Of a DNA stretch of 64,000 nucleotides, positions 1 through 62,841 are shown in pieces. Position numbers and translations under genes: made by a program. Source of the stretch: a virus (taxonomy: Duplodnaviria; Caudoviricetes). The first letter of the stretch is position 1. Every line of letters begins with the position of its first letter. Below the pieces are notes generated by a model. It worked only from the letters and a program-made list of their open reading frames with translations. It did not search any database and was not told the origin of the DNA. Location of the stretch: the IMG/VR virus record IMGVR_UViG_3300028025_000089; one strand, written 5' to 3'.

Positions 1-159
1 CCGTATCCCCCCCATATATGACATTTTGACGGGTGAAAGGGGGGTTCAATCCCCTCTATAAAGTATTCGTAAAAAATTTCCAGAAAAATTTTTGGGAAAA
101 AATTGGAACTATTTCTCCCTATATATGAAAGGAGTATATTTATTAGAAAAGAATATATT

Positions 160-537
160 ATGAAAAGAACTATAAGATTAACAGAAAGAGATTTAACCAA
201 TATTGTAAAAAGGGTTATTAAAGAAGATGATGTAGATTTTATTAGATTAACAAGAAGAGGGGGTTATCCTATAATCACAAGTTTACATCTTATGAATATT
301 ATATTGGATGAACTTTCTTCAGAACTATCTGACCAATATGGTTTACCTGAATATGACCCATCTTCAAAAGAGCCCATTCCTGATCACTTACTTCCATATT
401 TAGATGAGATTAAAGATTTAGTGAAAGGTGTTGATACACTCCCAATATGGGATGGAGTGCATGATGCGGTATTAGACGATTTGAATGTCCAAGACTTTAT
501 AGGTCGTGTAATATCTGATTATGAAGAAGATAACTAA
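160..537 (+). CDS. Leader-tag family protein (MKRTIRLTERDLTNIVKRVIKE + novel acidic payload)
   Basis: ATG at 160 preferred over track start 103: follows ATATTTAT and begins the shared leader. Confidence 0.85.
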   Translation: MKRTIRLTERDLTNIVKRVIKEDDVDFIRLTRRGGYPIITSLHLMNIILDELSSELSDQYGLPEYDPSSKEPIPDHLLPYLDEIKDLVKGVDTLPIWDGVHDAVLDDLNVQDFIGRVISDYEEDN

Positions 538-546
538 AAAGTTTTT

Positions 547-573
547 AACCCCTCCCTTAAAGAGGGGTTTTTT
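547..573 (+). terminator. Intrinsic terminator
   Basis: AACCCCTC/GAGGGGTT stem plus T-run after stop. Confidence 0.85.
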
Positions 574-610
574 ATTTTATGATATATTTATATGAAAAAA
601 GAATTGTATT

Positions 611-931
611 ATGAAAAAAGTAATTAGATTAACAGAAAGAGATTTAACAAGAATTGTTAGACGAGTAATTAATGAAAGAGACTTCTCACCAAATGTGGTT
701 AAATATGATAAAGGTATGAGAGGTGGGGAAAACCCACTTAGAGATAGAAGAATTCCTGAGAGCAATTTCAACGAAGGGGATATTGTAACAATCAATAGAT
801 ATGGAAAAGAAGGTGAAGTTGTAAATGTTATGTTTGATCATGACAATAATAATTTCATATATCAAGTTAGAGCTGAACTACCTAGTGGGAAAAGTTATAT
901 GGGTGAATTCACAGACGAAGAACTATCTTAA
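611..931 (+). CDS. Leader-tag family protein, possible SH3/KOW-like payload
   Basis: MKKVIRLTERDLTRIVRRVINE; payload GDIVTINRYGKEGEVVNV..YQV resembles a small beta-barrel. Confidence 0.85.
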   Translation: MKKVIRLTERDLTRIVRRVINERDFSPNVVKYDKGMRGGENPLRDRRIPESNFNEGDIVTINRYGKEGEVVNVMFDHDNNNFIYQVRAELPSGKSYMGEFTDEELS

Positions 932-954
932 AAAAAAATAAAGAACTATATATT

Positions 955-983
955 AATCCCCCACCTCATCAGTGGGGTTTTTT
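955..983 (+). terminator. Intrinsic terminator (CCCCACCT..GTGGGG family)
   Basis: CCCCAC/GTGGGG stem plus T-run. Confidence 0.85.
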
Positions 984-1006
984 ATTTTTCATTATATTTA
1001 TCTAAT

Positions 1007-1420
1007 ATGAAAATCATAAGACTTACTGAATCTGATCTAACTAATATCGTTAAACGAGTGATTCGTGAAAATGACTCTATGTTAGAAAAAAACAAGAAGT
1101 TCTTAACCAATCTTATGGGTATTGATTTCACAGGTAAAATCGAACAAATAACCTCAATTTATGATGTTCCAATGGAATTTGATAGATATATTTCAACTGG
1201 AATGATTAATCGTTATTTAAACAAATTTGGACCTATGTATCTTTTTGAACTTGACGGACACAGGTATCTTTATTTGGATGTGGGGGATCATGAGAAGTTT
1301 ATTGATGAAAAAGGAAATGTTTTTATTGAAAATGAAATTCCCGAAAGACTTGGACTCGATGAAATTGGTTTAAGGTTTTCTAATATTATTGATCTGTATT
1401 TCAAAGAAGAGGATTTCTAA
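1007..1420 (+). CDS. Leader-tag family protein
   Basis: MKIIRLTESDLTNIVKRVIRE leader, ATATTTAT upstream. Confidence 0.85.
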   Translation: MKIIRLTESDLTNIVKRVIRENDSMLEKNKKFLTNLMGIDFTGKIEQITSIYDVPMEFDRYISTGMINRYLNKFGPMYLFELDGHRYLYLDVGDHEKFIDEKGNVFIENEIPERLGLDEIGLRFSNIIDLYFKEEDF

Positions 1421-1423
1421 AAC

Positions 1424-1519
1424 ATGACCCCCCATTTCAATTATAGTCAAATACTGAAAAAAAATTTCCAGAAAAATTTTGACGAAGACGATGATGATTA
1501 TTATTACGGTGGTGAATGA
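1424..1519 (+). CDS. Possible 31-aa micro-ORF or gene remnant
   Basis: MTPHFNYSQILKKNFQKNFDEDDDDYYYGGE; starts 3 nt after the previous stop. Confidence 0.3.
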   Translation: MTPHFNYSQILKKNFQKNFDEDDDDYYYGGE

Positions 1520-1559
1520 CCTGGTGGTCGTTGGTAATTAAAAGAAATAGATAAGATCT

Positions 1560-1588
1560 AACCCCATTTCTAAAGAGTGGGGTTTTTT
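1560..1588 (+). terminator. Intrinsic terminator
   Basis: AACCCCA..GTGGGGTT plus T-run. Confidence 0.8.
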
Positions 1589-1753
1589 ATTTTTCTTCCT
1601 TTTTGTGGGGTGCCGGAAACCGAAACCCGACTTCGTCGGAAAAAATCGACCGACCGAACCCTTCGGGTTTTATTTTGTTTTATATAATAACTTATTTAAT
1701 GATCCATTCAGAAAAAGGTGTCTATTGATATATTTATAATAAAATATTTTAAT

Positions 1754-2065
1754 ATGAAAAGAATTGTAAGATTAACTGAGTCAGATTTGGCTCGAATCGT
1801 TAGACGAGTTATTAAAGAAGAAAGTCAATCCGTTGACACTGTTTGTCTTGAACGAGCGGGATATAAGGAAACGATCATTGGGGGTCCTCAAGTAAGACGA
1901 ATTAGATATCAGAAACAAACTGGTAACGTTTTAAGATCAATAGACTCTAAAACTAATATCATGGAAAAATTTGTTGGGGACAAAAAATACGAATGTAATT
2001 GTTCTTGTAGCGATGGAAAGGTTACAGAATCAAATTGTAAAGAAGTAGTGAATTCGATTTATTAG
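1754..2065 (+). CDS. Leader-tag family protein, Cys-rich payload
   Basis: ATG 1754: MKRIVRLTESDLARIVRRVIKE; CxCxC near the C-terminus. Confidence 0.85.
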   Translation: MKRIVRLTESDLARIVRRVIKEESQSVDTVCLERAGYKETIIGGPQVRRIRYQKQTGNVLRSIDSKTNIMEKFVGDKKYECNCSCSDGKVTESNCKEVVNSIY

Positions 2066-2097
2066 ATTTTATATCTCAAAGTGAAAAAATATTATAG

Positions 2098-2121
2098 ACC
2101 CCGGATTAATTTGGGGTTTTT
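2098..2121 (+). terminator. Intrinsic terminator
   Basis: ACCCCGG/TTGGGGT stem plus T-run. Confidence 0.7.
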
Positions 2122-2219
2122 GGTTTATATGATAAATTATTTAATGATCCATTAAGAAAACAAGGTTTTTTTTAATTTTCGATATATTTATTAGTAAATT
2201 AAATAAAAAAAAATAAGTT

Positions 2220-2525
2220 ATGAAAAAAATTATTAGACTTACAGAATCAGATTTAACAAGAATTGTTAGACGAGTTATTAATGAAGCCGCAAGAAACGTA
2301 GGTAAAACATTTACCGCTGATGGTGACACATATCAAGCAACTGTTGGTGCTGGAGATAAGATTTTCTATTGGGGATCAAAATCTCAATCTAAAGCTACGG
2401 GACAGACTGTGGAAAAACTTAATAAAATGTCAGGGTATAACATACCAGCATCTAATGGGGAAATATCAATCGGATATATTCAAAAAAATCCTGGTTTTAA
2501 AACTACATTGAGAGAACTTATTTAA
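2220..2525 (+). CDS. Leader-tag family protein
   Basis: MKKIIRLTESDLTRIVRRVINE-A. Confidence 0.85.
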   Translation: MKKIIRLTESDLTRIVRRVINEAARNVGKTFTADGDTYQATVGAGDKIFYWGSKSQSKATGQTVEKLNKMSGYNIPASNGEISIGYIQKNPGFKTTLRELI

Positions 2526-2578
2526 TATAAAATTAAAATATTAGATTAATTTTTATCCCCTTAAAAAAAATATGATCT

Positions 2579-2603
2579 AACCCCACCTCAAGTGGGGTTT
2601 TTT
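2579..2603 (+). terminator. Intrinsic terminator (CCCCACCT family)
   Basis: AACCCCAC/GTGGGGTT plus T-run. Confidence 0.85.
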
Positions 2604-2625
2604 GTTTTATATAGTATTTATTATT

Positions 2626-3036
2626 ATGGATCATCTAATTAAAAGAATTATTAACGAAACACTTATTGAAAAGTTCTTTGATTCCATGTTTTCTGATTTA
2701 AATTTAGATAATTTGGAATCTATGGTTATTAGAGACAATAGAAGTGTTCATAAAACTAGTGTTGGGTATTATACCCCTGATCTAAAAAAACCTGATCTAA
2801 AAAAAATGGTCTTTAGAGTTGTAGAACCATTTAAAAGTTCCTACTGGGATTCAGATGATCCACAAAGTAGAATTAGACCAATTAATCATCCAAAAAGTTT
2901 ATATATTAGAGAAGATATATATAACACAATTATGGATTATATCCCTAATAAAAAAATGGTAGTTGATTGGTTCAATAAAAGATATGATCAGAATGTTGAA
3001 CAAATACTAAACGGAGGATTTCATTTATTTTTATGA
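2626..3036 (+). CDS. Hypothetical protein with short leader variant (MDHLIKRIINE)
   Basis: ATG 2626 after GTATTTAT. Confidence 0.75.
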   Translation: MDHLIKRIINETLIEKFFDSMFSDLNLDNLESMVIRDNRSVHKTSVGYYTPDLKKPDLKKMVFRVVEPFKSSYWDSDDPQSRIRPINHPKSLYIREDIYNTIMDYIPNKKMVVDWFNKRYDQNVEQILNGGFHLFL

Positions 3037-3365
3037 AAATAATAATTACAGAAGATCAAGTTGAATCTCTTAGAAAGATCAAAGTCTTAGAAAACTATAT
3101 TGATAATATTTTATCTGAATATCCTTGGTATGAAGGAATCGATGGTGTTAAAGTTGAACCATTTATGTTTAGACATCCAGAATCATATAAGGTTCCATTG
3201 TATAGGTTTAATATCAAAACAAACGATCATGAACAATCATTTCATGATGGAGAATCAGATAACTCACCCATAACAAATGATATTGATGAGATGTTTGAGT
3301 CATTATTTCCAAAGAAAGATGGTAAATGGACCGCAGTTTGGGTGTTTAATTTTGTTGATGCATGA
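3033..3365 (+). CDS. Hypothetical protein, MKIIITEDQ leader variant
   Basis: ATGA overlap with the upstream stop. Confidence 0.8.
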   Translation: MKIIITEDQVESLRKIKVLENYIDNILSEYPWYEGIDGVKVEPFMFRHPESYKVPLYRFNIKTNDHEQSFHDGESDNSPITNDIDEMFESLFPKKDGKWTAVWVFNFVDA

Positions 3366-3817
3366 AAATAAATATTGGAAATGAAAAACTAAAAAATATG
3401 TTAAAGAAACTCTTTGAAAACAAGGAGTTTGAAATGACGCTCAAAGATACTGAACATGATGGTTGGGATGGGTATGACTATGTTACGAAAGATGTTATTT
3501 ATGAATTTAAATTTCATGTCGTTGTTAGAAGTGTTATTGGTAAAGGAATAGATGCTGTTGGTGATATGGATATTATTATTGATTCTATAACAAAAAATGG
3601 TGATGACTATTATCATAATTGGGCTGATAATAATTATAGTGATAGGGTATGGTATATTAATGAACTTGATGAAATGTTTTATCTTGATTACTTGGAAGTT
3701 TTACCATTTAGTGTTTTTACAACTGTTTATGGTTATGATGAAAAAAGAAAAGGTGAAAGTGTGATTGATGAATCTTTAATTAAAAGAGTTATTAAAGAAA
3801 TTTTAAAAGAAAAATAA
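3362..3817 (+). CDS. Hypothetical acidic protein with leader-like motif at its C-terminus
   Basis: ATGA coupling; ends IDESLIKRVIKEILKEK. Confidence 0.8.
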   Translation: MKINIGNEKLKNMLKKLFENKEFEMTLKDTEHDGWDGYDYVTKDVIYEFKFHVVVRSVIGKGIDAVGDMDIIIDSITKNGDDYYHNWADNNYSDRVWYINELDEMFYLDYLEVLPFSVFTTVYGYDEKRKGESVIDESLIKRVIKEILKEK

Positions 3818-3818
3818 G

Positions 3819-3830
3819 ATATTTATAAAT
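3819..3830 (+). promoter_or_regulatory. Putative phage late-class promoter ATATTTAT (representative of dozens)
   Basis: (A/G)TATTTAT lies roughly 10-35 nt upstream of leader-tag and head genes; this copy is ATATTTATAAAT. Confidence 0.65.
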
Positions 3831-3840
3831 AAAAAATGTC

Positions 3841-4284
3841 ATGAAAAAATTAATTAGATTAACAGAGACAGATTTGGCTCGAATTGTTAGAAAAGTAATC
3901 ATCGAAGAAATGGAAGATGTAAAAACTAATGATACTTTTGACTTTAGTCAAACTGAAAAAAAATTATTTGATAGGTTCCTTACGGAAAAAAACGGTTTTG
4001 AATATGTGGATACTAAAGGAGATGGTGATGTATACGCTTTAAAAAGAAGAGGGTTTACAATAGTATTAATGGTAAAACCATCAAATGACCCATCTAAATT
4101 ATATATTCAAATTTATGTTAAATTACCAATGGGTAAAATTATTAATTATTTAAATGAAGTTCAGGGTAAATCAGGTATGGAGTTAAAAATGACTGACTAT
4201 AATGGATTGATTAAACAAATACAGGGAGCGATTAATTTTGGTAAGGCTCAATATGATTATGACACTCTTCCACCACTAAAATAA
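3841..4284 (+). CDS. Leader-tag family protein
   Basis: MKKLIRLTETDLARIVRKVIIE. Confidence 0.85.
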   Translation: MKKLIRLTETDLARIVRKVIIEEMEDVKTNDTFDFSQTEKKLFDRFLTEKNGFEYVDTKGDGDVYALKRRGFTIVLMVKPSNDPSKLYIQIYVKLPMGKIINYLNEVQGKSGMELKMTDYNGLIKQIQGAINFGKAQYDYDTLPPLK

Positions 4285-4304
4285 AGAAAAAAAAATAAAA
4301 TTTT

Positions 4305-4342
4305 AAAATCCCCCTACTCTTTTGACTGGTGGATTTTTTTTT
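4305..4342 (+). terminator. Intrinsic terminator (TCTTTTGACTGG-loop family)
   Basis: AAAATCC/GGATTTT plus T-run; loop related to those at 5138 and 6691. Confidence 0.75.
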
Positions 4343-4375
4343 GTATCAATTATATATTTATAAATAAAAAATGTC

Positions 4376-4726
4376 ATGAAAAAAATAGTTAAATTAACAG
4401 AAAGTGATTTATCTCGTATTGTTAAACGAGTTATTAATGAACAACCAATTGATGATTATACCTCACAAAGTATCCACAGTAAGTTGGTTCACTACGGTGA
4501 TACTATGGACCAAGAATATAAAAGAATTAAAAATATTAGAGAAGAACTTGATAACTCAATAAGAATGCATCTTAGAAGGGGTTCAATTTCAGATATTTTT
4601 GATCAAGGAAAAAGGACTCCATCTGATATCTCTGATCTTGTTAGACAGTTAACAAGTAAAATGGGTCAATTGGAAAGCACTGTTAGCCAATATAAAAGAA
4701 TGATTAGAAACGCAATAACTGACTAA
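4376..4726 (+). CDS. Leader-tag family protein, helical payload
   Basis: MKKIVKLTESDLSRIVKRVINE. Confidence 0.85.
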   Translation: MKKIVKLTESDLSRIVKRVINEQPIDDYTSQSIHSKLVHYGDTMDQEYKRIKNIREELDNSIRMHLRRGSISDIFDQGKRTPSDISDLVRQLTSKMGQLESTVSQYKRMIRNAITD

Positions 4727-4748
4727 ATTAATATTGTAGAAAATACAA

Positions 4749-5096
4749 ATGAAAAAAATAGTTAGACTTACAGAATCAGATTTGATTCGAATTGTTAAAC
4801 AAGTTTTGAATGAAGAAAGTGATGTAGCTGTTGGAGGAAAACCAAAAGGTTATGACGAATTTCAAAAAAAATGTATCACAAAAAATAAAGGAAGTTTTAG
4901 AACTTACTCTAGTAATAGAACACTTTTAAAATGCACTAAAACTGAAGGGTCGTTTTTTCATCCCGAAGAAAGAGATAGTTTATGGGTTAATAATAACCCT
5001 TACAATCCTAAAGATACAGGTATAAACGGATCGTGGAAATTTGAAAACGGAAAAATAACTTTACATAACGCCTTAAAAGGTGATAAAACATTATAA
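4749..5096 (+). CDS. Leader-tag family protein
   Basis: MKKIVRLTESDLIRIVKQVLNE. Confidence 0.85.
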   Translation: MKKIVRLTESDLIRIVKQVLNEESDVAVGGKPKGYDEFQKKCITKNKGSFRTYSSNRTLLKCTKTEGSFFHPEERDSLWVNNNPYNPKDTGINGSWKFENGKITLHNALKGDKTL

Positions 5097-5103
5097 ATAA
5101 ATT

Positions 5104-5168
5104 AACCCCACCTCATCGAGTGGGGTTTTTTGTTTTTCTCCCTTTCTTTTGACTGGGGGATTTTTTTT
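5104..5168 (+). terminator. Tandem intrinsic terminators
   Basis: AACCCCAC/GTGGGGTT+T-run, then TCCC..GGGGA+T-run. Confidence 0.8.
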
Positions 5169-5183
5169 GTCTATATTTTTTTT

Positions 5184-5744
5184 ATGAGTCACGATCAACT
5201 TAAGAAATTACGGCAAAATGACGATTTCATAAATGAAATGTTAAACCGACCTATCACCTCTTACTCCCAATTTAAACAAAGAGAAGAGGATACTAAGGTA
5301 TTATTTTTGATTAGAGACAAATATCTAAAACTTCTTGGTGAATTTATTGAGAGTTCATACCCCGATTTAAGATTTGATATTCATATTAAAAATAGAGACC
5401 CAAAAGAACAAAGACCTTATTGGTATGGTCACACCTACATGGAATTGGTAATATTTGATGTTATAATTCAACCAATTTATAATCCCATGACTTTCGAACC
5501 TGTTTATAGAACAACAACCTATAAGGATAGTATTAATATGGAAATGATTTATAATGAAATTGAGTCGTTTATTCCTGATATTAATAAACACCTGATGATC
5601 ACTTTCACACCTCACTTTACTCCCGATCAAATAAATCATACTACACAATTTTATGATATTCCATCTTTTGAATGTTGGGAAAGGTATTGGAAAAATGAAA
5701 ATTATAAACGCCCATATCAAGGTGAATTTAACCCCAATTATTAA
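5184..5744 (+). CDS. Hypothetical protein
   Basis: First ATG after the terminator. Confidence 0.75.
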   Translation: MSHDQLKKLRQNDDFINEMLNRPITSYSQFKQREEDTKVLFLIRDKYLKLLGEFIESSYPDLRFDIHIKNRDPKEQRPYWYGHTYMELVIFDVIIQPIYNPMTFEPVYRTTTYKDSINMEMIYNEIESFIPDINKHLMITFTPHFTPDQINHTTQFYDIPSFECWERYWKNENYKRPYQGEFNPNY

Positions 5745-5749
5745 TAAGA

Positions 5750-6004: not shown

Positions 6005-6050
6005 TTAATTTGATATACATAAAAATAAGTTTTGTCGTATATTTATTTTT

Positions 6051-6230: not shown

Positions 6231-6243
6231 ATTAAATTAAGAA

Positions 6244-6672: not shown

Positions 6673-6690
6673 ATAAATTAAATAAAATTT

Positions 6691-6724: not shown

Positions 6725-6751
6725 TATGTATAATTTTAAAAAAAAATATTT

Positions 6752-7207: not shown

Positions 7208-7220
7208 AATTGATTTTTAA

Positions 7221-7509: not shown

Positions 7510-8940
7510 ATGAAAAACATTATTATTACCGAAAACCAACTCAGATTGTTGATAAATAATTCGTTTGATTTAATCAAAGAAGAAAAAAGACCTTTTGAAA
7601 AATTAAAAGAATGTATAATTAGCGAAGACTATAAATATATTGTATACGATAATAACTTATATGATTCGCAAACGGGTAATCTAATTCCTATATCTGAAGG
7701 TTGGTCTTTGAGTGATATTTTACATACAGGTGCCGATGTTTTATCTGTTGCCGCTGATTTTATAATTCCAGGATCAGGAGCAATTATTGATACATTGAAT
7801 GCGTTGAGTTATATAATCGAAGCTCAATTTAAAACTGGACCTGAACAAGACAAACTTTATTTAATGGCGGCAATTACATTTGCATTTGTTGTTCTTCCTG
7901 GTCCATTACAAGCACTTTCTGCTCCTTTGAAAAGAGCAATTAAAACGGGTGCAGGTTTTGCGTCTAAGGCGGTCGTAAGAGGATTAAAAATTATTGGGGG
8001 AATTTTAGAATCAATCCTTGTAAAACTACCAGCAACGATTAGTAAAGCATTAAAATCCCCATTAGCCAAAAAAATATTAGGTAGGTTTTCAGGGAAAATT
8101 TCCAAGTTCTTTCAAAAATTTGCAATTAGAATTAGAAAAATTTTGGCACCATTAACTAAAGCCGGTGAAAAGGTGGTTAAAAAGGGCAGTCAAGAGGCTG
8201 GTGAAAAGGTGGTTAAAAAAGGTGCTGAAAAAGTAGTTGTAACAAATATTGTTCATCAAGCGGCCAAAAGGTTTTTCCAAAAAATACCAAAAATGTCTCA
8301 AGGAGGTAAAATTTTGAGAAAGGCTGGATTTGCACCAGGATTCGCTTATAGATACACTTCTAAGAAAGGTGCCACAACAACGGCAAAAATTATGAATATT
8401 AATGACAATGGTGTTTTAGTTATGTTTAAAAACGGTAATCAAATGACGGTTCCTGTAGAAACATTTGTACAAAGAGCTGTTGGTGCACCATGGTTAAGAA
8501 GAGGTGCGTCAACTTTAGTTCCATTATTTATAAAAAGATTTTTTGATATGGTAACACCTGATGGATCGGGTATTGACTACAAAAAATTAGATCAACTCAA
8601 AGATTTAGATCCGGCTAAAACTTCTAAAGAATCTTTAGATTATCTAATGGAGGAAGTTGCTGATTACGAAGGAGATACAGGAACTTATAATGTGTCAACA
8701 AACGTAACTGACTTCCAAAATGCTCTTGAGTTGTTGGGTTATAAATTAGTTAGAGCTGGTGCAGACGGTAAATTTGGTCCTGAAACAAAGGAACAATTAA
8801 CAAAATTCCAAAACGATAATAAACTTACATCTTCAATAGGAAAAATGGATAGAGTAACTGCAAGAAAATTGGCGGAACTTTTAAAAACTAAAAATATTCC
8901 TAATTCCTTAGATTTACAAAATAAATTAAACAAAGTATAA
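7510..8940 (+). CDS. Leader-variant protein with hydrophobic central helices and C-terminal peptidoglycan-binding domain (PG_binding_1-like)
   Basis: MKNIIITENQL; C-term VTDFQNALELLGY..ADGKFGPETKEQLTKFQ..GKMDRVT. Confidence 0.8.
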   Translation: MKNIIITENQLRLLINNSFDLIKEEKRPFEKLKECIISEDYKYIVYDNNLYDSQTGNLIPISEGWSLSDILHTGADVLSVAADFIIPGSGAIIDTLNALSYIIEAQFKTGPEQDKLYLMAAITFAFVVLPGPLQALSAPLKRAIKTGAGFASKAVVRGLKIIGGILESILVKLPATISKALKSPLAKKILGRFSGKISKFFQKFAIRIRKILAPLTKAGEKVVKKGSQEAGEKVVKKGAEKVVVTNIVHQAAKRFFQKIPKMSQGGKILRKAGFAPGFAYRYTSKKGATTTAKIMNINDNGVLVMFKNGNQMTVPVETFVQRAVGAPWLRRGASTLVPLFIKRFFDMVTPDGSGIDYKKLDQLKDLDPAKTSKESLDYLMEEVADYEGDTGTYNVSTNVTDFQNALELLGYKLVRAGADGKFGPETKEQLTKFQNDNKLTSSIGKMDRVTARKLAELLKTKNIPNSLDLQNKLNKV

Positions 8941-8942
8941 AA

Positions 8943-9296
8943 ATGAAAGATTCAGAAATAAAAAAAATAGTAAGAAGAGTAATTTCAGAAGAAGTTAACG
9001 AAGGATCCACATGGGAAGGTGTTAAAGGATTTTTTAGAGGTAAAGGATATTATTATACAAAATATCTTACAGAACTAGAATATATCTTAGAAGAAATGGA
9101 AAAAGAAATTGTTAGTAATGCAAAGATAGAAAAAAAATTACAAAAATTAAAAGATAAGGTTGAGTCTTCGTCAATAGAAAAAGAAAAAAAAGACAACATA
9201 AAAATTATGTTTAACAGAACTCAACAAGTTATTCAATACGCCGATAGATTAATACAAAATGAATTATACAACTTAAAAAGACTTAAAGATTATTAA
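8943..9296 (+). CDS. Leader-variant coiled-coil protein
   Basis: MKDSEIKKIVRRVISEE. Confidence 0.8.
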   Translation: MKDSEIKKIVRRVISEEVNEGSTWEGVKGFFRGKGYYYTKYLTELEYILEEMEKEIVSNAKIEKKLQKLKDKVESSSIEKEKKDNIKIMFNRTQQVIQYADRLIQNELYNLKRLKDY

Positions 9297-9303
9297 TTCA
9301 ATT

Positions 9304-9702
9304 ATGAAAAAAATAATTAAACTTAATAAAAATGATTTAACGAAAATCGTTAAAAAAATTATTTTAGAAATGGATAATTTTTCTAATGACAAATTATCAG
9401 TAAAAGACTGGGAAAAAATATGGTTTAAATTAAGAAGACTTTCTCCAAGTTTTTTATTTCCTGATTTTCAAAATTTTTTTTTTACTTTCGGCGGTTTAGA
9501 CTTTCACTATAATGAAGATGATGGTTCATTAGTATTACACCCAATGTTTTCGGATCCATATCTTTGGAGAGATGAGTATGATAAAGGTGTTGAAGTTTTA
9601 GAAAAATATGCCGAAAAAATTAATGGGATTATCGAAGAATCAGGTTTGGACATAAAATTTGAAATGGGTCCAAAATTTCAAATGAGAATCTATAAACCAT
9701 GA
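9304..9702 (+). CDS. Leader-tag family protein (divergent)
   Basis: MKKIIKLNKNDLTKIVKKIILE. Confidence 0.8.
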   Translation: MKKIIKLNKNDLTKIVKKIILEMDNFSNDKLSVKDWEKIWFKLRRLSPSFLFPDFQNFFFTFGGLDFHYNEDDGSLVLHPMFSDPYLWRDEYDKGVEVLEKYAEKINGIIEESGLDIKFEMGPKFQMRIYKP

Positions 9703-10556
9703 AAGTTATAATTTCAGAAAATCAACTTGGTCTTATTAGACGGATGAGCAAAATTCAAGGGTTGATTGATCCCACTATGGATGAGGTTTATGAATATTTA
9801 CAAGGGAGCAATCCATCTTCTTTAGAAAAAAGACTTTATGGTTCTTTTGAAAGTACCGTTGTTATGAAATTAGCAAATCAACTTGCAAATAAAACAAGAC
9901 TTACCGGAGATGAAAAAGTTACACTAAGAAACCAACTTCAAAGGTATATTACAAATGAATATTACACGAAGATTAGGGACTACTTTATGTCTCGTTTAGA
10001 AAAAACTATAACTGAATCAAAATACGAAAAGAACTCAAACCTCATTTATAAGATGTGGAATGACGGTATGGATTTCTATGAGATTTCAGATCTGACGGGT
10101 TTAAGTTTAGAACAAATAATTTTTCTATTAAAAGATAAAAAAATACATATTGATTGTGGTTTTGCTTATCAACTTGTATCTATGCTTTTTAGTCACACTG
10201 ATTTAGTAAATAAGAAGTATAGTTTTGAAAACACGTCTGCAGATTTAGAGTTCTCATGGGATGGTTTTGGTGGTTATACTACTTTTGTATATCATGACCC
10301 AAGTTACAAATTAGTTGGTTTTTCAACACCTTATTGGAATGGTGATTGTAAAACACCTGTTGAGGGTTCGTATTTTGAAGATAAGGAGTCTGGTGAATAT
10401 TATGATCGTTATGACAACCAAAGTTTTCAAACAAGTTATACACCAAAAAGTTTTGAGTCCATTTCAGAACTGGTTGATTTTTTAAATAATGATTATCCAA
10501 AATTGTTAATTGAACCAATTGAAAAGTTATTAAAATATTATAAAGATAGAATTTAG
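9699..10556 (+). CDS. Hypothetical protein with MKVIISENQL leader and internal HTH-like segment
   Basis: GMDFYEISDLTGLS resembles a helix-turn-helix. Confidence 0.75.
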   Translation: MKVIISENQLGLIRRMSKIQGLIDPTMDEVYEYLQGSNPSSLEKRLYGSFESTVVMKLANQLANKTRLTGDEKVTLRNQLQRYITNEYYTKIRDYFMSRLEKTITESKYEKNSNLIYKMWNDGMDFYEISDLTGLSLEQIIFLLKDKKIHIDCGFAYQLVSMLFSHTDLVNKKYSFENTSADLEFSWDGFGGYTTFVYHDPSYKLVGFSTPYWNGDCKTPVEGSYFEDKESGEYYDRYDNQSFQTSYTPKSFESISELVDFLNNDYPKLLIEPIEKLLKYYKDRI

Positions 10557-12162: not shown

Positions 12163-12912
12163 ATGAATCACAAGGTAATTTTAACTGAAAAACAATTAGA
12201 TAGAATTGTTAGAAACTTGATGGAGGAACCAATTATTCCACTATCTCGACAAACAGATATAAATGCACAAAATGTTAATACAGCATCTTGGGAAAGAAAA
12301 AAAGGTAGAGAAATCGCAACAACACTTTCTGCCAAAGGTAAGGAAAACTTTAAATTGGGTGAGGCTGAAATAAACAAGGATGCGGCCCAAATTAAAAAAA
12401 TTGTTTCCGATTTGAAAGATTTTAATAATAGAGGTGGAGGAACCGCAACTGTTAATGGTAGTGCATCAAACACAGCTTGGGGTAGTTTTCCTGCTAGCTC
12501 TTCACAAGCGAGAGAAAAAAATACACAACTTGCAGAAAAAAGAAGAGATAATTTAATCAATTATTTAAAAACATTAGGATTAAATAAAATAACATTCGTT
12601 AAAGGAAGGGCCAGTGTGTCAGACTCTGATAAAGCAGAAAATCAAAATATCACAATAGATATTTTAGGTCAAGGAACTATGTTTGTAGACCCGAAAGGAG
12701 ATATTGGTGATAACACAAGAACTTCACCTAAACTTTACGATAAAAAATTTCCTGAAAGAAAAAAAATAATTCCAACCCCATATAGAACATCTGAATCAAG
12801 AGTTTGCACAAAGTTACCAACTGAACTTGTTAGTGAACTTAAAAAAGTAATCTATAATTGGGGTAAAACCAAAGGTTTAAAATTACCTATGAGTGATAAA
12901 ATCATAAAATAA
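12163..12912 (+). CDS. Leader-tag protein with OmpA_C-like peptidoglycan-binding motif
   Basis: VILTEKQLDRIVRNLMEE; NTQLAEKRRDNLINYLKTLG resembles N..LS..RA..V..YL...G. Confidence 0.7.
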   Translation: MNHKVILTEKQLDRIVRNLMEEPIIPLSRQTDINAQNVNTASWERKKGREIATTLSAKGKENFKLGEAEINKDAAQIKKIVSDLKDFNNRGGGTATVNGSASNTAWGSFPASSSQAREKNTQLAEKRRDNLINYLKTLGLNKITFVKGRASVSDSDKAENQNITIDILGQGTMFVDPKGDIGDNTRTSPKLYDKKFPERKKIIPTPYRTSESRVCTKLPTELVSELKKVIYNWGKTKGLKLPMSDKIIK

Positions 12913-12959
12913 AAGAGTTTTTTTAAAAAACTAAATATTTATAAATAAAATTAAAAAAA

Positions 12960-13604
12960 ATGGGAAGAAAAATTAGACTTACAGAATCAGAGTTTCATTC
13001 ATTAATTCGAAGAATTGTTATGGAAACTCAAGAAGAAATGAATATTCAAATGGACGAAGAAATGGACATGGAAATGGGTGAAGAAGACGTTGTTGATAAA
13101 ATCCAAGATGTTGTTGAGGATGAATTAGGTGACGAGTTCAGACAATTATCTTCTGATGAACTTATGACTATGATGAGAAACTTAGAAAAAGTTGAAAACA
13201 TGATTAGATCAAAAGAAAGAAGATCAGGTGAAGAAATTTTATTTGATGATTTTGTTGATGAAGTTGGAAGTGTTTCTAAAGATGAGATGGGTGAAGGTAT
13301 TGATGCAAGAAAATCTAAAATGAGAAAAAGAGGTAAAATGATTGGTGGGGCAGGATTACTTGCGGCGGGATTATTAACTTTAATGTCTCAAGGAACAACA
13401 TATACTGATTGGGGTCCTGCATTCATTGATCTTCACGACGCTATACAAGCGGCTTTTGGTGAATACGCACCAAATGTTGGTTTGTTAGAAGTTGTTACAG
13501 GACTTGGATTGGCTTTAAATGGTATCGCTCAACAACAGGGAGAAGATGAAGAAAAAGAAATTCAAAAAGAGAATTATTTAAGAAGAAAATACAGAAGATA
13601 TTAA
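12960..13604 (+). CDS. Leader-tag protein with acidic region and hydrophobic helices
   Basis: MGRKIRLTESEFHSLIRRIVME. Confidence 0.85.
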   Translation: MGRKIRLTESEFHSLIRRIVMETQEEMNIQMDEEMDMEMGEEDVVDKIQDVVEDELGDEFRQLSSDELMTMMRNLEKVENMIRSKERRSGEEILFDDFVDEVGSVSKDEMGEGIDARKSKMRKRGKMIGGAGLLAAGLLTLMSQGTTYTDWGPAFIDLHDAIQAAFGEYAPNVGLLEVVTGLGLALNGIAQQQGEDEEKEIQKENYLRRKYRRY

Positions 13605-18722: not shown

Positions 18723-19253
18723 TTAAAGACCTTTAACTAAGTTTATTGATTGTTTTAGATATTCTTTCGCTCTTGGAGATGGGGTATATTCATCATCTTT
18801 AGTTTGTAAGTTCAATACCTTCTCAATATCCTTAACAAGTTCCGTTCCGTGTTCATTTTCTTTATATAACTCAATTATCTTATCCATAGCCTTATGACAA
18901 TCACCTGTAGTCTCATCATAGAAATTTTTATTTCTAAATCTGTTTAAATGATTCATCATTTCATAAGCCAAGTGAGATCCACCATCTTTGATGTCTTTAA
19001 ACAATCTAAGATTATTCAAAATACCTAATGTATCAACCATTGAATTAACACCTGAAATTCTTTTAGTAATTCCTGGTGTATATTTTGAATACTCTGAAGA
19101 TCCTCCAACAATTTCATCCAACGGAATTACGTTTTCAGGAATACATTTTGGTTTTTTGTCTTTCTTTTTTGAACTTGAAGACATTTCTTGTTCGCTAAGG
19201 ACAGATCTAACAATTTTGTTAATATCTCTTTCTGTTAATTTTTTTATTTTCAT
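18723..19253 (-). CDS. Leader-tag family protein
   Basis: MKIKKLTERDINKIVRSVLSE. Confidence 0.85.
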   Translation of the reverse strand: MKIKKLTERDINKIVRSVLSEQEMSSSSKKKDKKPKCIPENVIPLDEIVGGSSEYSKYTPGITKRISGVNSMVDTLGILNNLRLFKDIKDGGSHLAYEMMNHLNRFRNKNFYDETTGDCHKAMDKIIELYKENEHGTELVKDIEKVLNLQTKDDEYTPSPRAKEYLKQSINLVKGL

Positions 19254-56576: not shown

Positions 56577-57305
56577 ATGGACAATTTAAAAATATTAGGA
56601 CCAAGAGATTCAGGTCGTGGAATTCTTGTTGAGTATGATGCGGGTTATATCGATCCGAATGAAAGAAGAAACTTATCTATGATAAGGGAGAATCGTGATA
56701 TGTTAGATCACTCAAAACCTTTTGAGTTTTATGCCGTATTACAAAAATATAACACCCCAAATAGAAACGGAAGAATCTACCCTGAAAAGATTTTAAAAAG
56801 AGAAGCCGAGAATTATAAAAAGATGATTCAAAAAGGAACTGCTCTTTCAGAACTAAACCACCCTGAGTCTTCTCTAATAGACTTAGATCGAGTTTCCCAT
56901 ATGATTACTGATATATGGTGGGAAGGTCCTGTATTGTTAGGTAAATTGAAATTACTAACAAGTCCTGGGTTTCATGAAAGGGGTGTTGTTTCTACTAAAG
57001 GTGATTTAGCTGCAAACTATCTTCGTCAGGGAGTTACTTTAGGTATTTCTTCTCGTGGTGTAGGATCTCTTAAAAAAGTTGGTGAGCAAAACGAAGTTCA
57101 AGATGATTTTGAATTAATTTGTTTTGACCTTGTATCTTCACCATCTACACCAGGAGCATATCTTTTTAAAGAACCAAATGAAAGATTAAACTTTGAAGAA
57201 AATCTTGATGAGGAGAAAAAAATGAATGCTGAACGACATGTTGGTGAATCTGGTTCTAAATCACTTGACTTAATGAAAAGATTATCCGATTATTTGGATA
57301 AATAA
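56577..57305 (+). CDS. gp21: Prohead core protease (T4 gp21-like)
   Basis: NRNGRIYP, SELNHP, GISSRGVGS, FDLVSSPSTPGA. Confidence 0.93.
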   Translation: MDNLKILGPRDSGRGILVEYDAGYIDPNERRNLSMIRENRDMLDHSKPFEFYAVLQKYNTPNRNGRIYPEKILKREAENYKKMIQKGTALSELNHPESSLIDLDRVSHMITDIWWEGPVLLGKLKLLTSPGFHERGVVSTKGDLAANYLRQGVTLGISSRGVGSLKKVGEQNEVQDDFELICFDLVSSPSTPGAYLFKEPNERLNFEENLDEEKKMNAERHVGESGSKSLDLMKRLSDYLDK

Positions 57306-59238: not shown

Positions 59239-61140
59239 ATGGGAGCATTATTAGAATCAGGTCTTGTTGGTAACATCGGGTTAAAACACCTTAAAGTTAT
59301 TAAAGAAGACACAATTAACAAATGGGACAAATTAGGCTTTTTGGATGGTCTAAAAGGTCACTTAAAAGAAAACGTAGCACAGTTATATGAAAACCAAGCT
59401 TCTTTCTTGATCAACGAAGCAACTGCTGATGGAAGTTCTAACGGAGCATTCGAAACAGTTGTTTTTCCAATCGTAAGAAGAGTTTTCTCTAAATTGTTGG
59501 CTAACGACATCGTATCAGTACAAGCTATGAACTTACCAATCGGTAAATTGTTCTACTTTGTACCAAGAATCCAAGGTTATTCAAACGCAGGATCAATTGC
59601 GGATTTCCCGAATAACCCAACAGGTGGTGATCATTACGCACCTATCGGTTCTCCTGAAGCTGTTAATTCAGGAAATGATAATCCTAACCAAGGTTATCCA
59701 GGTGGACCAGGTTATCCTTACAGAAAAGATCTTTACGATTTATTCTATGAAGGAAATGAGGCAAGTTTAGATCCTCCAGGATTATTTGACTACTCTAAAG
59801 GTAGATGGACTGCAGTTACTGCAACTGCCGCAACACAATTATGGTCTGCAGGAACTTTAGTTGACGCTCAAATTCCAGCTGGTAACACAAGAAAAGTTAT
59901 TATCAAACTTTGTGGTTTTGCTAACGCAGGTAGTGGTAAACTTATTGGTCCTGATGGTAATGAAATGGATACTGAATCTTTCCTTTCAGATCTTAAAATC
60001 TACGGTGGAGCTGGATTATCGGCATCTACAACACCATGTGACGTTATTAAAAACGGAAATAATCAATACTTACCATTGTTATTTAGAGTTGTGACTCAAA
60101 TCTACGGTAAAGGTATCGTTCAACCTACAAGTTCAAACGCACAAACACAATTTACTAATAACGGAAACAACTATAACAGCCCTTCAAATCCTCCAACAGG
60201 AAATGGTGGTAGTTACAATGATATCTGTGATAATAATGGTTGTATCTATTTAGAAGTTGATTTATCTTGTCCTGTATGTGCTGATTGTGACTCAACATCA
60301 TTAGATGGTTACACAGGAACAACTATTTTCTCTGCATCTACAGGTGGTTCATTCACAGCATGGTATAGAAGATATGCTAACCTTGAGTTTGAAGATCAAA
60401 TTGGTGAGGTTTCTTTCGACTTAGAATCTGTAACAGTTTCTGTAACTGAAAGAAAACTAAGAGCACAATGGTCTCCTGAATTAGCTCAAGACGTTGCTGC
60501 ATTCCACAACATCGACGCTGAAGCTGAATTGACAGCATTGTTGTCAGAGCAAGTAGCGGCTGAGATCGACCGTGAAATTTTACGTGACTTACGTAAAGGT
60601 GCGGCTTGGAACTTACGTTGGGACTACAACGGATGGAGAAGAATTAACGCTACTACATCTTACACTCAAAAAGACTGGAACCAAACTTTGATTACAGCAA
60701 TCAACCAATTGTCAGCACAAATCCACAAATCTACATTGAGAGGTGGTGCTAACTGGATCGTTGTATCTTCTGAGGTTTCTGCAATCTTTGATGACTTAGA
60801 ATACTTCCACGTATCTAACGCGGCTCCTGAGCAAGATCAATACAACATGGGTATTGAAAGAGTTGGAACATTATCAGGTCGTTACCAAGTTTACCGTGAT
60901 CCTTACTTCCCACCAAACCAAGTTTTGATCGGACACAAAGGAACTTCATTGTTAGACACAGGTTACATTTACGCACCGTATGTTCCTCTACAATTAACAC
61001 CTACAATGTATAACCCATTCAACTTCACACCTATCAAAGGTATTATGACAAGATACGCTAAGAAAATGGTTAACAACCGTTTCTACGGACGTATCACAGT
61101 TGATGGAGTTAGAACATTCGACTTAAGAGAATTGAGATAA
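59239..61140 (+). CDS. gp23: Major capsid protein (T4 gp23-like)
   Basis: VSVQAMNLPIG.LFY, RKLRAQWSPELAQDV, LSEQVAAEIDREI, GYIYAPYVPL, FTP.KGIMTRY. Confidence 0.96.
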   Translation: MGALLESGLVGNIGLKHLKVIKEDTINKWDKLGFLDGLKGHLKENVAQLYENQASFLINEATADGSSNGAFETVVFPIVRRVFSKLLANDIVSVQAMNLPIGKLFYFVPRIQGYSNAGSIADFPNNPTGGDHYAPIGSPEAVNSGNDNPNQGYPGGPGYPYRKDLYDLFYEGNEASLDPPGLFDYSKGRWTAVTATAATQLWSAGTLVDAQIPAGNTRKVIIKLCGFANAGSGKLIGPDGNEMDTESFLSDLKIYGGAGLSASTTPCDVIKNGNNQYLPLLFRVVTQIYGKGIVQPTSSNAQTQFTNNGNNYNSPSNPPTGNGGSYNDICDNNGCIYLEVDLSCPVCADCDSTSLDGYTGTTIFSASTGGSFTAWYRRYANLEFEDQIGEVSFDLESVTVSVTERKLRAQWSPELAQDVAAFHNIDAEAELTALLSEQVAAEIDREILRDLRKGAAWNLRWDYNGWRRINATTSYTQKDWNQTLITAINQLSAQIHKSTLRGGANWIVVSSEVSAIFDDLEYFHVSNAAPEQDQYNMGIERVGTLSGRYQVYRDPYFPPNQVLIGHKGTSLLDTGYIYAPYVPLQLTPTMYNPFNFTPIKGIMTRYAKKMVNNRFYGRITVDGVRTFDLRELR

Positions 61141-61426: not shown

Positions 61427-62371
61427 ATGAATAAGTTAGATCAAATAATTAAAAAGGTCATTAAAGAGGCTACTGGTGATAGTAGTGGTAGTAGAGGAAG
61501 TTACGCACCACCGATGCAACCTGGTCTTAGATATTGGGAAGATTCATCTTTAGGTCCTTTTACTGATGCGGTGTCAGACTTTAAAAGTCCTTTAGTTCAG
61601 TATGATAGTTATGATGAAAAATTCGATCTTAGAAGAAACCAAATTATTAAATTAGAAAAAAAAGCGGCCAAAATACAAGATTTTATCAAACATCACCCAT
61701 ATTCAACATTTTCAGATGATGATGGTAATCCTGTAAATCCATACATGCAAGACGGGTTTAATCCAAATGTAAAAGAAAAATTGTCACCATTTACGGAAAA
61801 AGTTCCTTTTAATGAATGGATAGAGTTGTCCGATGATAATTTATTAAATGAGACTAGCACTACAGTTACCGCAGGTCCATACAATGCACCTTTAGAAATT
61901 GGTATTTATAAATGGAAAAATGAGTTAGACCCTTTTACCGATTCTGTCGATTCATTTTATAATAGAACAATTAAAAAAAACACTCTTAAAAATAATATAA
62001 AAAGAACGGTTGGTGTTTGGGAAAAAGATAATAATGGATCATATAAAAGAGATATAGATTATCCTGACACAATTAATGAAGATTTAGCCGTGTGGTTTGG
62101 GACAAAGAAGAAACCTAAAGGATCTTCTCAACCAAAAGGACCGTGGGTAAACATTTGTCGTAAAGTCGACGGAAAACACCCCCCTTGTGGTAGAACGGAT
62201 ACAAGTAAAGGGGCTTACCCAAAATGTCGAGCGGCTGGTGTGGCATCTAAAATGAGTGATTCTCAAAAAAGATCTGCTTGTCAACAAAAAAGAAGAGCTG
62301 AAAAGAGAGATACTCAAACAGGTAAAGGTCAAAAACCTGTCATGACAAGTTATAAACCAAGAAAAAAATAA
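61427..62371 (+). CDS. Leader-variant protein (MNKLDQIIKKVIKE-A) with basic Cys-containing C-terminal domain
   Basis: WFG..GPWVNI..GKHPPCGR..AYPKC. Confidence 0.8.
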   Translation: MNKLDQIIKKVIKEATGDSSGSRGSYAPPMQPGLRYWEDSSLGPFTDAVSDFKSPLVQYDSYDEKFDLRRNQIIKLEKKAAKIQDFIKHHPYSTFSDDDGNPVNPYMQDGFNPNVKEKLSPFTEKVPFNEWIELSDDNLLNETSTTVTAGPYNAPLEIGIYKWKNELDPFTDSVDSFYNRTIKKNTLKNNIKRTVGVWEKDNNGSYKRDIDYPDTINEDLAVWFGTKKKPKGSSQPKGPWVNICRKVDGKHPPCGRTDTSKGAYPKCRAAGVASKMSDSQKRSACQQKRRAEKRDTQTGKGQKPVMTSYKPRKK

Positions 62372-62376
62372 TTATT

Positions 62377-62841
62377 ATGAATATAAATAGATTTAAACAA
62401 CTTTTAGAATCAAATATGGGTAGTGTAAAACCACTATTAGTTGAACAAGTAAAAACAGGTAGTGCTTTAGGACCTATTAATTGCTATAAATTAGTTGACA
62501 TTAGAAAAATGAGTGAAGGAACTCCATCAATTGAAATAGGGTCCTCAGTTGTGAATAACATTACACAAGAAGAACCTGGACTTTGGAGTGTTGTGGTTGA
62601 AGTTCAAAATCCATCTATGATTCCTGACAGTCCTGTAGGTGAAGTTCAAACAGAATATGAATTAGATATTGTTCCTTTATCAAGATTTTTTAAAAGTCAA
62701 TTAAACGCTGAAAATCCTGTAGATTCTAAACAAATGATTGTGTTAACTTATGATTCTACAGGACAAAAACATTTTTGTAAGGCTAAAGACCCAAACGATC
62801 AAGCAAATATAGTTGCCGTAAATCCTGCTAGTGGAGGATAG
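62377..62841 (+). CDS. Hypothetical protein (MNINRFKQLLES leader type)
   Basis: ORF track. Confidence 0.8.
   Translation: MNINRFKQLLESNMGSVKPLLVEQVKTGSALGPINCYKLVDIRKMSEGTPSIEIGSSVVNNITQEEPGLWSVVVEVQNPSMIPDSPVGEVQTEYELDIVPLSRFFKSQLNAENPVDSKQMIVLTYDSTGQKHFCKAKDPNDQANIVAVNPASGG

What the first reader, a model, noticed from the sequence alone, without database searches (positions are those of the whole stretch)
140..5170. Integron-like cassette array without an integrase: promoter-leader-payload-terminator units with shared DNA
Seen: repeated units of ATATTTAT, leader ORF and GC hairpin terminator. DNA identity is concentrated at the leaders: 26 nt identical at 641-666 and 2250-2275, and 31 nt identical spanning promoter plus start at 3819-3849 and 4354-4384. 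Inference: homologous recombination between leader and terminator sequences swaps payloads, giving a hypervariable effector locus.
Basis: partly seen in the sequence, partly recalled or inferred. Interest (0 to 1): 0.7.

Follow-up and report, generated by a model that had tools for sequence, protein, structure and literature searches.

The report
Shared leader peptide on shuffled phage genes
A large uncultivated T4-like phage of Bacteroidota carries a fast-changing row of small genes that all start with the same 22-residue peptide, most likely a tag that loads varied proteins into the phage head for injection.

Summary
Window 140-5170 holds eight small + strand genes, each starting with the near-identical 22-aa leader MKKIIRLTESDLTRIVRRVINE followed by unrelated sequence. 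Most have their own ATATTTAT promoter box and a G+C hairpin terminator. Both exact repeats (26 nt and 31 nt) are present.

The window comes from a T4-like phage with portal, terminase, gp23 capsid protein and a gp21-type prohead protease. Ten near-identical relatives keep the order of shared genes but gain, lose or replace single cassettes. Breakpoints lie in terminators, at promoters and inside the leader. This matches the promoter/stem-loop (PeSL) shuffling known in T4-type hyperplastic regions. It is not an integron.

Leader conservation is at the peptide level: synonymous sites are close to random. The leader heads at least 7,755 protein clusters, sits almost always at the extreme N-terminus, and has no Pfam or PHROG family. 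It carries two near-invariant (L/I)-x-E motifs, the T4 prohead-protease site. The capsid protein's inferred maturation site is LINE|A.

My best reading (about 50%) is a capsid-targeting propeptide, like the T4 internal-protein CTS. Packaging and cleavage were not shown. This scan's earlier notes held nothing on this element.

The parts
136..569 (+). Cassette A: ATATTTAT box 136-143, leader gene 160-537, terminator 547-569
   Evidence: The payload is absent from relative G001, where a type-2-leader gene follows the same promoter.
584..977 (+). Cassette B: box 584-591, leader gene 611-931, terminator 959-977
   Evidence: It is 100% identical at protein level in G001.
994..1584 (+). Cassette C: box 994-1001, leader gene 1007-1420, 22-nt repeat 1459-1480 (= 71-92), terminator 1560-1584
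   Evidence: The same payload occurs behind a different leader type in L109:5475-6494.
1730..2119 (+). Cassette D: box 1730-1737, leader gene 1754-2065, terminator 2096-2119
   Evidence: Identity to G001 stops about 60 nt into the leader.
2184..2599 (+). Cassette E: box 2184-2191, leader gene 2220-2525, terminator 2579-2599
   Evidence: Only the 66-nt leader (2207-2285) is shared with G001, at 95%; the payload differs.
2626..3817 (+). Three overlapping conserved genes: 2626-3036 (starts MDHLIKRIINE), 3033-3365 (starts MKIIITEDQ, leader type 3), 3362-3817 (leader-like C-terminus LIKRVIKE)
3819..4343 (+). Cassette F: box 3819-3826 within the palindrome TATTTATAAATA, leader gene 3841-4284, terminator about 4305-4343
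   Evidence: It is replaced by gene x11 in all other relatives.
4354..5173 (+). Cassette G+H: box 4354-4361, leader genes 4376-4726 and 4749-5096, two terminators 5104-5127 and 5137-5160
   Evidence: The slot between the two terminators is empty here, and holds cassette x19 or x12 in relatives.
7510..10556 (+). Further leader-bearing genes outside the finding: 7510-8940 (type-3 leader, PG_binding_1), 8943-9296, 9304-9702, 9699-10556
12163..13604 (+). Leader-bearing genes 12163-12912 and 12960-13604
18723..19253 (-). Ninth full type-1 leader gene (176 aa), the most widely conserved payload
56577..57305 (+). gp21-family prohead serine protease (Peptidase_S77), the proposed processing enzyme
59239..61140 (+). 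gp23-family major capsid protein; N-terminal propeptide with KVIKE (19-23) and inferred maturation site LINE|A (57-60|61)
61427..62841 (+). Two head-module genes with leader-like N-termini: 61427-62371 (MNKLDQIIKKVIKE|A..., very basic C-terminus) and 62377-62841 (type-2 leader MNINRFKQLLES..PLLVE)

Best explanation
There are two layers. (1) DNA level, confidence about 0.85. This is a hyperplastic region of a T4-like jumbo phage of Bacteroidota. Small genes sit between composite terminator-promoter cassettes (CCCC..GGGG hairpin, T-run, then ATATTTAT). The phage's general homologous recombination, acting on these short shared sequences and on the shared leader DNA, inserts, deletes and replaces single cassettes. 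This is how PeSL cassettes work in T4-type phages. (2) Protein level, confidence about 0.5. The shared 22-aa leader is a capsid-targeting propeptide. I infer that it docks the attached protein to the assembling scaffold core. I also infer that the gp21-type prohead protease cuts it off after Glu9 (L-T-E) and/or Glu22 ((I/L/V)-x-E). The varied payloads would then be packaged in the head and delivered with the DNA at the next infection. Shown here: the gene anatomy, the family's size and strict N-terminal position, peptide-level selection, the cassette polymorphism and its breakpoints, and the shared promoter class. Inferred: docking, cleavage, packaging and injection.
For: Phage type: T4-like portal, terminase, gp23 capsid protein and S77 protease. 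Four of four near-complete leader-bearing genomes also have S77. Leader position: 220 of 224 leader ORFs in 82 loci start with it. Payloads: 129 clusters, 73 of them singletons. Family size: 7,755 representatives at E<=0.001 among 1.84 billion. Known families: no Pfam or PHROG hit. Motifs: L7-T8-E9 in 214-219 of 224, and (I/L/V)20-x-E22 with E in 221 of 224 while position 21 varies. This is the T4 gp21 site type; T4 Alt is cut at ITE-6 and LTE-619 (PMC5694885). T4 CTS propeptides are 10-19 aa, and Glu is needed for processing (PMC9026906). Capsid protein: the capsid protein's N-terminal propeptide ends in a conserved LINE followed by variable residues in five genomes, and the start of mature T4 gp23 falls near this point. 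A second leader type (NRFKQLLES..PL(I/L)xE) has the same two-motif layout. It heads a gene just after the capsid gene and genes in G001's array. Promoters: leader genes use the ATATTTAT class that also precedes terminase, portal and scaffold genes, and none uses the host-like TAnnTTTG class. In other loci 108 of 199 leader ORFs have ATATTTAT and 4 of 199 have the host type, against 151 and 100 of 630 other ORFs. Structure: a low-confidence AF2 model (pLDDT 57.5) shows the leader as helix 8-22 followed by a disordered linker. Fused proteins keep whole internal leader copies. Some payloads suit delivery: Tae4 amidase, YkuD/Tlde1 with PG_binding_1, and a weak ArdA hit. The strict DNA pattern for the leader occurs once in 596 Gb of prokaryote genomes. 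Shuffling.
Against: No virion proteome, N-terminal mapping or expression data exist for this uncultivated lineage. Cleavage and packaging are therefore pure inference. The leader has no sequence similarity to the T4 CTS and is twice as long. Short (L/I)-x-E motifs are common in an AT-rich proteome. Twenty or more leader-type genes in 64 kb is many for head-internal proteins. Cell-wall enzymes could equally be late lysis proteins. I infer that ATATTTAT is a late promoter only from its position before head genes; it also precedes an operon with denV-like and VanY genes. The AF2 model is of low confidence.
Confidence: 0.5

Rival explanations
1. The leader is an uncleaved docking or oligomerisation helix. 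It brings many different proteins to one common partner other than the prohead core, such as a host machine, a phage hub protein, or the phage's ClpB/ClpC-like AAA+ ATPase as a recognition tag.
For: Nearly every face of the helix is conserved, not only the hydrophobic stripe, as expected for a specific peptide-partner contact. Internal and repeated leader copies occur in fused proteins. A Clp-type ATPase is encoded at 44142-46181. The leader is a separate helix on a flexible linker (low confidence).
Against: This does not explain the near-invariant Glu at two positions with hydrophobic P3 and a free P2. It does not explain the same motif at the capsid protein's maturation site, the strict N-terminal position, or the promoter class shared with head genes.
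Confidence: 0.25
2. The shared 5' sequence is kept for a nucleic-acid function: a translation-initiation or regulatory operator on the mRNA, or simply a homology patch kept uniform by gene conversion so that cassettes can recombine.
For: Crossovers do fall in leader DNA. Some pairs share long exact stretches, such as B/E at 89% and the F/G promoter plus start.
Against: Synonymous sites are close to random: 306 identical codons of 450 against 250 expected. Ser switches between AGT and TCN, and Leu between TTA and CTT. The peptide is conserved across thousands of clusters with divergent DNA. No Rfam family reached its gathering score on window 1-8000; the six hits at E up to 1 are sub-threshold and overlap terminators.
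Confidence: 0.07
3. It is an integron-like site-specific cassette system whose recombinase lies elsewhere in the genome.
For: Tandem small cassettes are each followed by a hairpin, and cassettes are present or absent among relatives.
Against: No integrase family was found among 66 window ORFs. The hairpins are short G+C stems with T-runs, i.e. terminators. Cassettes carry their own promoters. Junctions are spread over promoter, leader and terminator rather than one fixed core site. T4-type phages recombine at short homologies without a dedicated enzyme (PMC2839356).
Confidence: 0.02

Closest known systems
T-even internal proteins (IPI, IPII, IPIII, Alt) with their capsid targeting sequence, and the polymorphic IP loci
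   Same: T4-type head machinery with a gp21-family protease. A short N-terminal peptide is shared by otherwise unrelated small proteins. It ends in (L/I)-x-E. The genes are clustered in hypervariable loci flanked by promoter/stem-loop elements (PMC3012670, PMC9026906, PMC2839356).
   Different: There is no sequence similarity to MKTYQEFIAE. The leader is 22 aa with two candidate cut sites rather than 10-19 aa. There are thousands of payload clusters rather than about 30 known variants. The host phylum is Bacteroidota. Packaging and cleavage are untested here.
PeSL regulatory cassettes of T4-type hyperplastic regions (Arbiol 2010; Comeau 2014)
   Same: A composite G/C-run stem-loop terminator plus promoter lies between ORFan genes. 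Insertions, deletions and replacements between near-identical phages have junctions in these elements.
   Different: The promoter here is not the host-type early promoter. It lacks an upstream box and is shared with head genes. Part of the recombining homology is coding (the leader). Mini-circles were not examined.
Propeptides of ejection and inner-body proteins of phiKZ-like giant phages (SPN3US, phiKZ)
   Same: Many head-internal proteins are processed by a gp21-related protease after Glu. Paralogues can share identical N-termini (PMC5694885).
   Different: Those propeptides are mostly over 100 aa, the motif is (A/S/G)-x-E, and the protease family is S80 rather than S77.
Bacterial polymorphic toxin systems (CdiA, Rhs, T6SS effectors)
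   Same: A constant trafficking part is joined to swappable variable parts by recombination at a conserved junction. Tae4 and Tlde1-type domains occur among the payloads.
   Different: The constant part here is only 22 aa, is N-terminal and is phage-borne. No immunity genes are evident.
Integrons
   Same: Tandem array of small cassettes, each with a hairpin.
   Different: There is no integrase, no attC and no single Pc promoter, and the junctions are not site-specific.

Membership tests
T4-type capsid-targeting propeptide / internal head proteins | Phage assembles heads with a gp21-family (S77) prohead protease, scaffold, gp20 portal and gp23 capsid protein | tested here: met
   (His95, Ser159 and Asp184 conserved in five proteases)
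T4-type capsid-targeting propeptide / internal head proteins | Short peptide at the extreme N-terminus, shared by proteins that are otherwise unrelated | tested here: met
T4-type capsid-targeting propeptide / internal head proteins | Peptide ends in the protease's motif, hydrophobic-x-Glu | tested here: met
   E9 in 219 of 224 and E22 in 221 of 224, with L7 and I/L/V20. The capsid protein's inferred site LINE|A is conserved. This is sequence evidence only.
T4-type capsid-targeting propeptide / internal head proteins | Sequence homology to the T4 CTS | tested here: not met
   By inspection there is no resemblance to MKTYQEFIAE. No PHROG or Pfam hit. No tblastn match of the 26-aa leader or the 176-aa leader protein in 50,697 phage records (the MCP does match).
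T4-type capsid-targeting propeptide / internal head proteins | Co-expression with head genes | tested here: inconclusive
   The promoter motif class is shared with terminase, portal and scaffold genes.
T4-type capsid-targeting propeptide / internal head proteins | Payload present in virions, propeptide removed, protein ejected into the host | not testable with these tools
   The lineage is uncultivated and no proteome is held.
PeSL-type cassettes of T4 hyperplastic regions | Repeated composite element: stable stem-loop (G-run/C-run) next to a promoter, between small ORFan genes | tested here: met
   (families D3, D4, D7)
PeSL-type cassettes of T4 hyperplastic regions | Promoter is a host sigma-70-like early promoter | tested here: not met
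   ATATTTAT has no conserved upstream box. It also precedes head genes, and the host-like TAnnTTTG class is separate.
PeSL-type cassettes of T4 hyperplastic regions | Indels and replacements between close relatives with junctions in the elements | tested here: met
PeSL-type cassettes of T4 hyperplastic regions | Excised mini-circles | not testable with these tools
   Read-level data were not available.
Integron | IntI tyrosine recombinase next to the array | tested here: not met
   No integrase family among 66 window ORFs; the rest of the genome was not seen.
Integron | attC recombination site after each cassette, and promoterless cassettes read from one Pc | tested here: not met
   The hairpins are 6-10 bp G+C stems plus T-runs. 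Seven of eight cassettes have their own promoter box.

The most novel reading that the evidence does not exclude
A universal 22-residue capsid-loading tag lets a whole lineage of uncultivated T4-like jumbo phages of Bacteroidota package and inject thousands of different small proteins. These would include cell-wall enzymes and anti-restriction proteins, with the repertoire reshuffled cassette by cassette between near-identical genomes. The tag would then be a simple sequence marker for a very large, unexplored pool of phage-injected host-takeover and anti-defence proteins.
Probability: 0.45. Interest if true: 0.78.

Novelty: new variant of a known kind. Interest (0 to 1): 0.62.

Why it matters
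If the leader is a capsid-loading tag, one short motif would flag thousands of proteins that phages deliver ready-made into Bacteroidota cells. That is the class to which the T4 internal protein IPI, an inhibitor of a host restriction enzyme, belongs. This would make the search for injected anti-defence and takeover factors directly testable in a major marine and freshwater host phylum. It would also offer a packaging tag for protein delivery. Independently of function, the locus shows PeSL-style modular shuffling far outside the enterobacterial and vibrio T4-likes where it was described, with a coding sequence serving as part of the recombining homology.

Tried and rejected
- Complex prediction of the S77 protease with the 30-aa leader alignment gave no answer: score 0.00, controls not run. 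I do not use it either way.
- AF2 of the 176-aa member gave only a low-confidence model (pLDDT 57.5). I did not run fold searches on it.
- blastn of window 1-8000, and tblastn of the leader and of the 176-aa protein, found nothing in 50,697 deposited phage records.
- The ESM Atlas gave only 'hypothetical protein' viral clusters.
- Rfam gave nothing above threshold on 1-8000.
- A literature search for the motif found nothing relevant.
- Earlier-findings look-up by sequence returned two unrelated notes.
Read mapping and RNA evidence could not be obtained, and read laying was not used.
- The search for related loci with the leader alignment failed on genome contigs. A degenerate DNA pattern was used instead.
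- I tried to locate the ArdA-bearing member by acidity and failed. The ArdA hit (E 1.4e-4) stays weak and unplaced.
- The host-type promoter pattern with a -33 box is not enriched: 10 against 7 expected.
- Rejected the ribbon-helix-helix reading of the leader: no conserved second helix.
- Rejected a secretion signal: the peptide is too charged, and T9SS signals are C-terminal.
Full report
WHAT IS THERE

Window 1-5200 holds eight + strand genes, starting at 160, 611, 1007, 1754, 2220, 3841, 4376 and 4749. Their products begin with an almost identical 22-residue peptide, consensus MKKIIRLTESDLTRIVRRVINE. After it they do not align at all.

Seven of the eight genes have ATATTTAT 6-29 nt before the start codon. 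Six G+C hairpins with T-runs follow the genes. They fold like intrinsic terminators. Terminator and promoter box often form one composite repeat: CCCC..GGGG, a T-run, about 10 nt, then ATATTTAT. The gene at 4749 has no box of its own and shares a unit with the gene at 4376. ORFs 2626-3817 are three overlapping genes with only leader-like ends.

CONTEXT

The window has 31.6% G+C. It encodes a T4-type portal, large terminase, gp23-family capsid protein and a gp21-family (Peptidase_S77) prohead protease. It also encodes a protein with SprB repeats and a type IX secretion CHU_C domain, and 23 tRNAs.

The nearest isolates have only about 41-43% capsid-protein identity; they include Flavobacterium phages. 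The protein index lists contigs up to 240 kb for the window's proteins and 280-350 kb for relatives. This is therefore an uncultivated T4-like jumbo phage, most likely of Bacteroidota. No integrase family was found among 66 window ORFs.

THE LOCUS IS HYPERVARIABLE

The IMG/VR contig G001 is 95-99% identical and collinear with window 6684-58207, but it is a mosaic over the array. Ten contigs that encode the identical anchor protein (6752-7204) show the same picture.

- Shared genes keep their order.
- The slot after gene H (the gene at 4749) is empty, or holds cassette x19, or holds cassette x12.
- Cassette x14 sits before the anchor in every relative except the window and one contig (L122) whose gene order is identical to the window's.
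- Window gene F (3841-4284) is replaced elsewhere by x11.
- Several other genes, including a GNAT acetyltransferase, come and go.

The junctions are informative.

- The promoter before gene A (160-537) is shared with G001, but a different gene with a different leader type follows the ATG.
- Several conserved blocks begin inside terminators.
- Identity to G001 ends at the last leader codons of gene D (1754-2065).
- For gene E (2220-2525), identity to G001 covers only the 66-nt leader.
- Alleles x19 and x12 are identical for 7 nt upstream plus the first 12 leader codons, then diverge. This is a crossover inside the leader.
- One contig keeps the full unit: terminator, promoter, x12, terminator. 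Others have lost the first terminator and the promoter between two 10-nt TATAAATAAA repeats.

This behaviour matches the PeSL cassettes of T4-type hyperplastic regions and the polymorphic internal-protein loci of T-even phages (PMC2839356, PMC4122927). It is not site-specific integron chemistry.

THE LEADER IS SELECTED AS A PEPTIDE

Within the window, leader pairs are 62-89% identical in DNA. Where the residue is the same, the codon is the same in 306 of 450 cases, against 250 expected from codon usage. Synonymous sites are thus near random, with a small excess from a few young pairs.

The leader is very widespread.

- 3,290 proteins match in the 90% clustered set.
- 7,755 representatives at 50% identity match at E<=0.001.
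- At least 288 ORFs were confirmed on IMG/VR contigs up to 322 kb.
- Complete genomes carry 7-14 leader genes each, partly clustered.
- It has no Pfam or PHROG family.
- It is absent from 50,697 deposited phage records.
- Its strict DNA pattern occurs once in 596 Gb of prokaryote genomes, on a 3.3-kb contig of a Bacteroidetes MAG.

In 82 loci, 220 of 224 leader ORFs start with the leader. Their payloads fall into 129 clusters, of which 73 are singletons, and the median protein length is 137 aa. Some proteins are fusions that keep complete internal leader copies.

WHAT THE LEADER PROBABLY DOES

Two positions are nearly invariant glutamates: E9 (219 of 224) and E22 (221 of 224). Each is preceded by a hydrophobic residue two places before (L7; I/L/V20). 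Residue 21 is free. This is the site type of the T4 prohead protease, which cuts after (L/I)-x-E. T4 Alt is cut at ITE-6 and LTE-619, and gp21 itself has LIE-9. The T4 capsid-targeting propeptides are 10-19 aa and need Glu for processing (PMC5694885, PMC9026906).

The phage's own capsid protein has a conserved N-terminal propeptide ending LINE, followed by variable residues, in five genomes. The start of mature T4 gp23 aligns nearby. Its N-terminus also contains KVIKE.

Two genes directly after the capsid gene carry leader-like N-termini. One starts ..IIKKVIKE|A and has a very basic tail. The other has a second leader type, NRFKQLLES..PL(I/L)xE, with the same two-glutamate layout. Several genes in G001's array carry that second type too. 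Related N-termini such as MKxIIITExQ are found on about a dozen more window genes. The same payload can sit behind different leader types.

Leader genes use the ATATTTAT promoter class, which has no upstream box. The same class precedes the terminase, portal and scaffold genes. None of the leader genes uses the host-like TAnnTTTG class. In other loci the counts are 108 of 199 with ATATTTAT and 4 of 199 with the host type for leader ORFs, against 151 and 100 of 630 other ORFs.

A few payloads have known domains: Tae4 amidase, YkuD/Tlde1 with PG_binding_1, another PG_binding_1, and weakly ArdA.

Taken together, the best reading is a capsid-targeting propeptide. It would load varied proteins into the prohead and then be clipped by the S77 protease, as in the T-even internal proteins, whose diverse bodies share only the targeting sequence (PMC3012670). 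I put this at about 50%. Nothing here shows cleavage or packaging.

RIVALS

- An uncleaved docking helix for another partner, including the phage's Clp-type ATPase: about 25%.
- An RNA- or DNA-level role for the shared sequence: about 7%, weakened by the synonymous-site result.
- An integron-like system: about 2%.

VERDICT

The DNA mechanism is a known kind. The leader itself is an undescribed, very large family and is likely a new variant of the capsid-targeting principle.

Noticed in passing
window 27610-33716: Cluster of 23 tRNA genes. It includes a call with a four-base anticodon (ggaa) at 32358-32433, tRNA-Ile(tat) and tRNA-Asn(att).
   Followed up: no
window 14792-17245: 817-aa phage protein with SprB repeats, a PKD-like domain and a CHU_C type IX secretion signal. 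It is conserved in all close relatives. It hints at a Bacteroidota host and at use of the host's T9SS.
   Followed up: no
window 44142-46181 (-): Phage-encoded two-AAA-domain Clp/Hsp100-type ATPase (AAA_2, AAA_lid_9, ClpB_D2-small; a UVR motif also hit among the window ORFs).
   Followed up: no
window 57655-59202 and 59239-61140: The 515-aa protein upstream of the capsid gene, taken as the scaffold from its position and acidic repeats (no family hit), has long Asp/Glu/Met-rich repeats. The capsid protein is 633 aa, with an unmatched stretch of about 210 residues (about 108-319) between its two matches to T4 gp23.
   Followed up: no
window 1585-1720 and 71-92 / 1459-1480: A G+C-rich intergenic stretch with hairpins is 93% conserved in G001. 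There is a 22-nt exact repeat and a 43-nt repeat at 91% (1673-1715 / 2118-2160) upstream of cassettes D and E. No Rfam match.
   Followed up: partly
window 3820-3831, 4355-4366, 12143-12154, 12936-12947, 40857-40868: At these five sites the calls place TATAAATA on both strands 4 nt apart, consistent with a 12-nt palindrome TATTTATAAATA that joins the ATATTTAT box to the T4-late-like TATAAATA; I read the sequence itself only at F, G, 12960 and 40870. All five sites lie before leader-type genes. The capsid gene has TATAAATA 41 nt upstream.
   Followed up: partly
L123, L124, L125, L128, L130 (slot of window 5184-5744): In several relatives the 186-aa gene is reduced to a short in-frame remnant that keeps its first and last codons. 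A GNAT acetyltransferase cassette is inserted nearby in L124 and L125.
   Followed up: partly
P0016, P0026, P0136-P0153: Natural fusion proteins carry two or three complete leader copies: leader-payload-leader-payload.
   Followed up: partly
window 20797-21765 (-), 14048-14473 (-), 37150-38410: Auxiliary genes: an IMPDH/GMP-reductase-like enzyme, an ORF at 14048-14473 (-) whose 141-aa counterparts in the relatives carry FKBP_C, a denV-like pyrimidine-dimer glycosylase and a VanY-type peptidase that is a likely endolysin.
   Followed up: no
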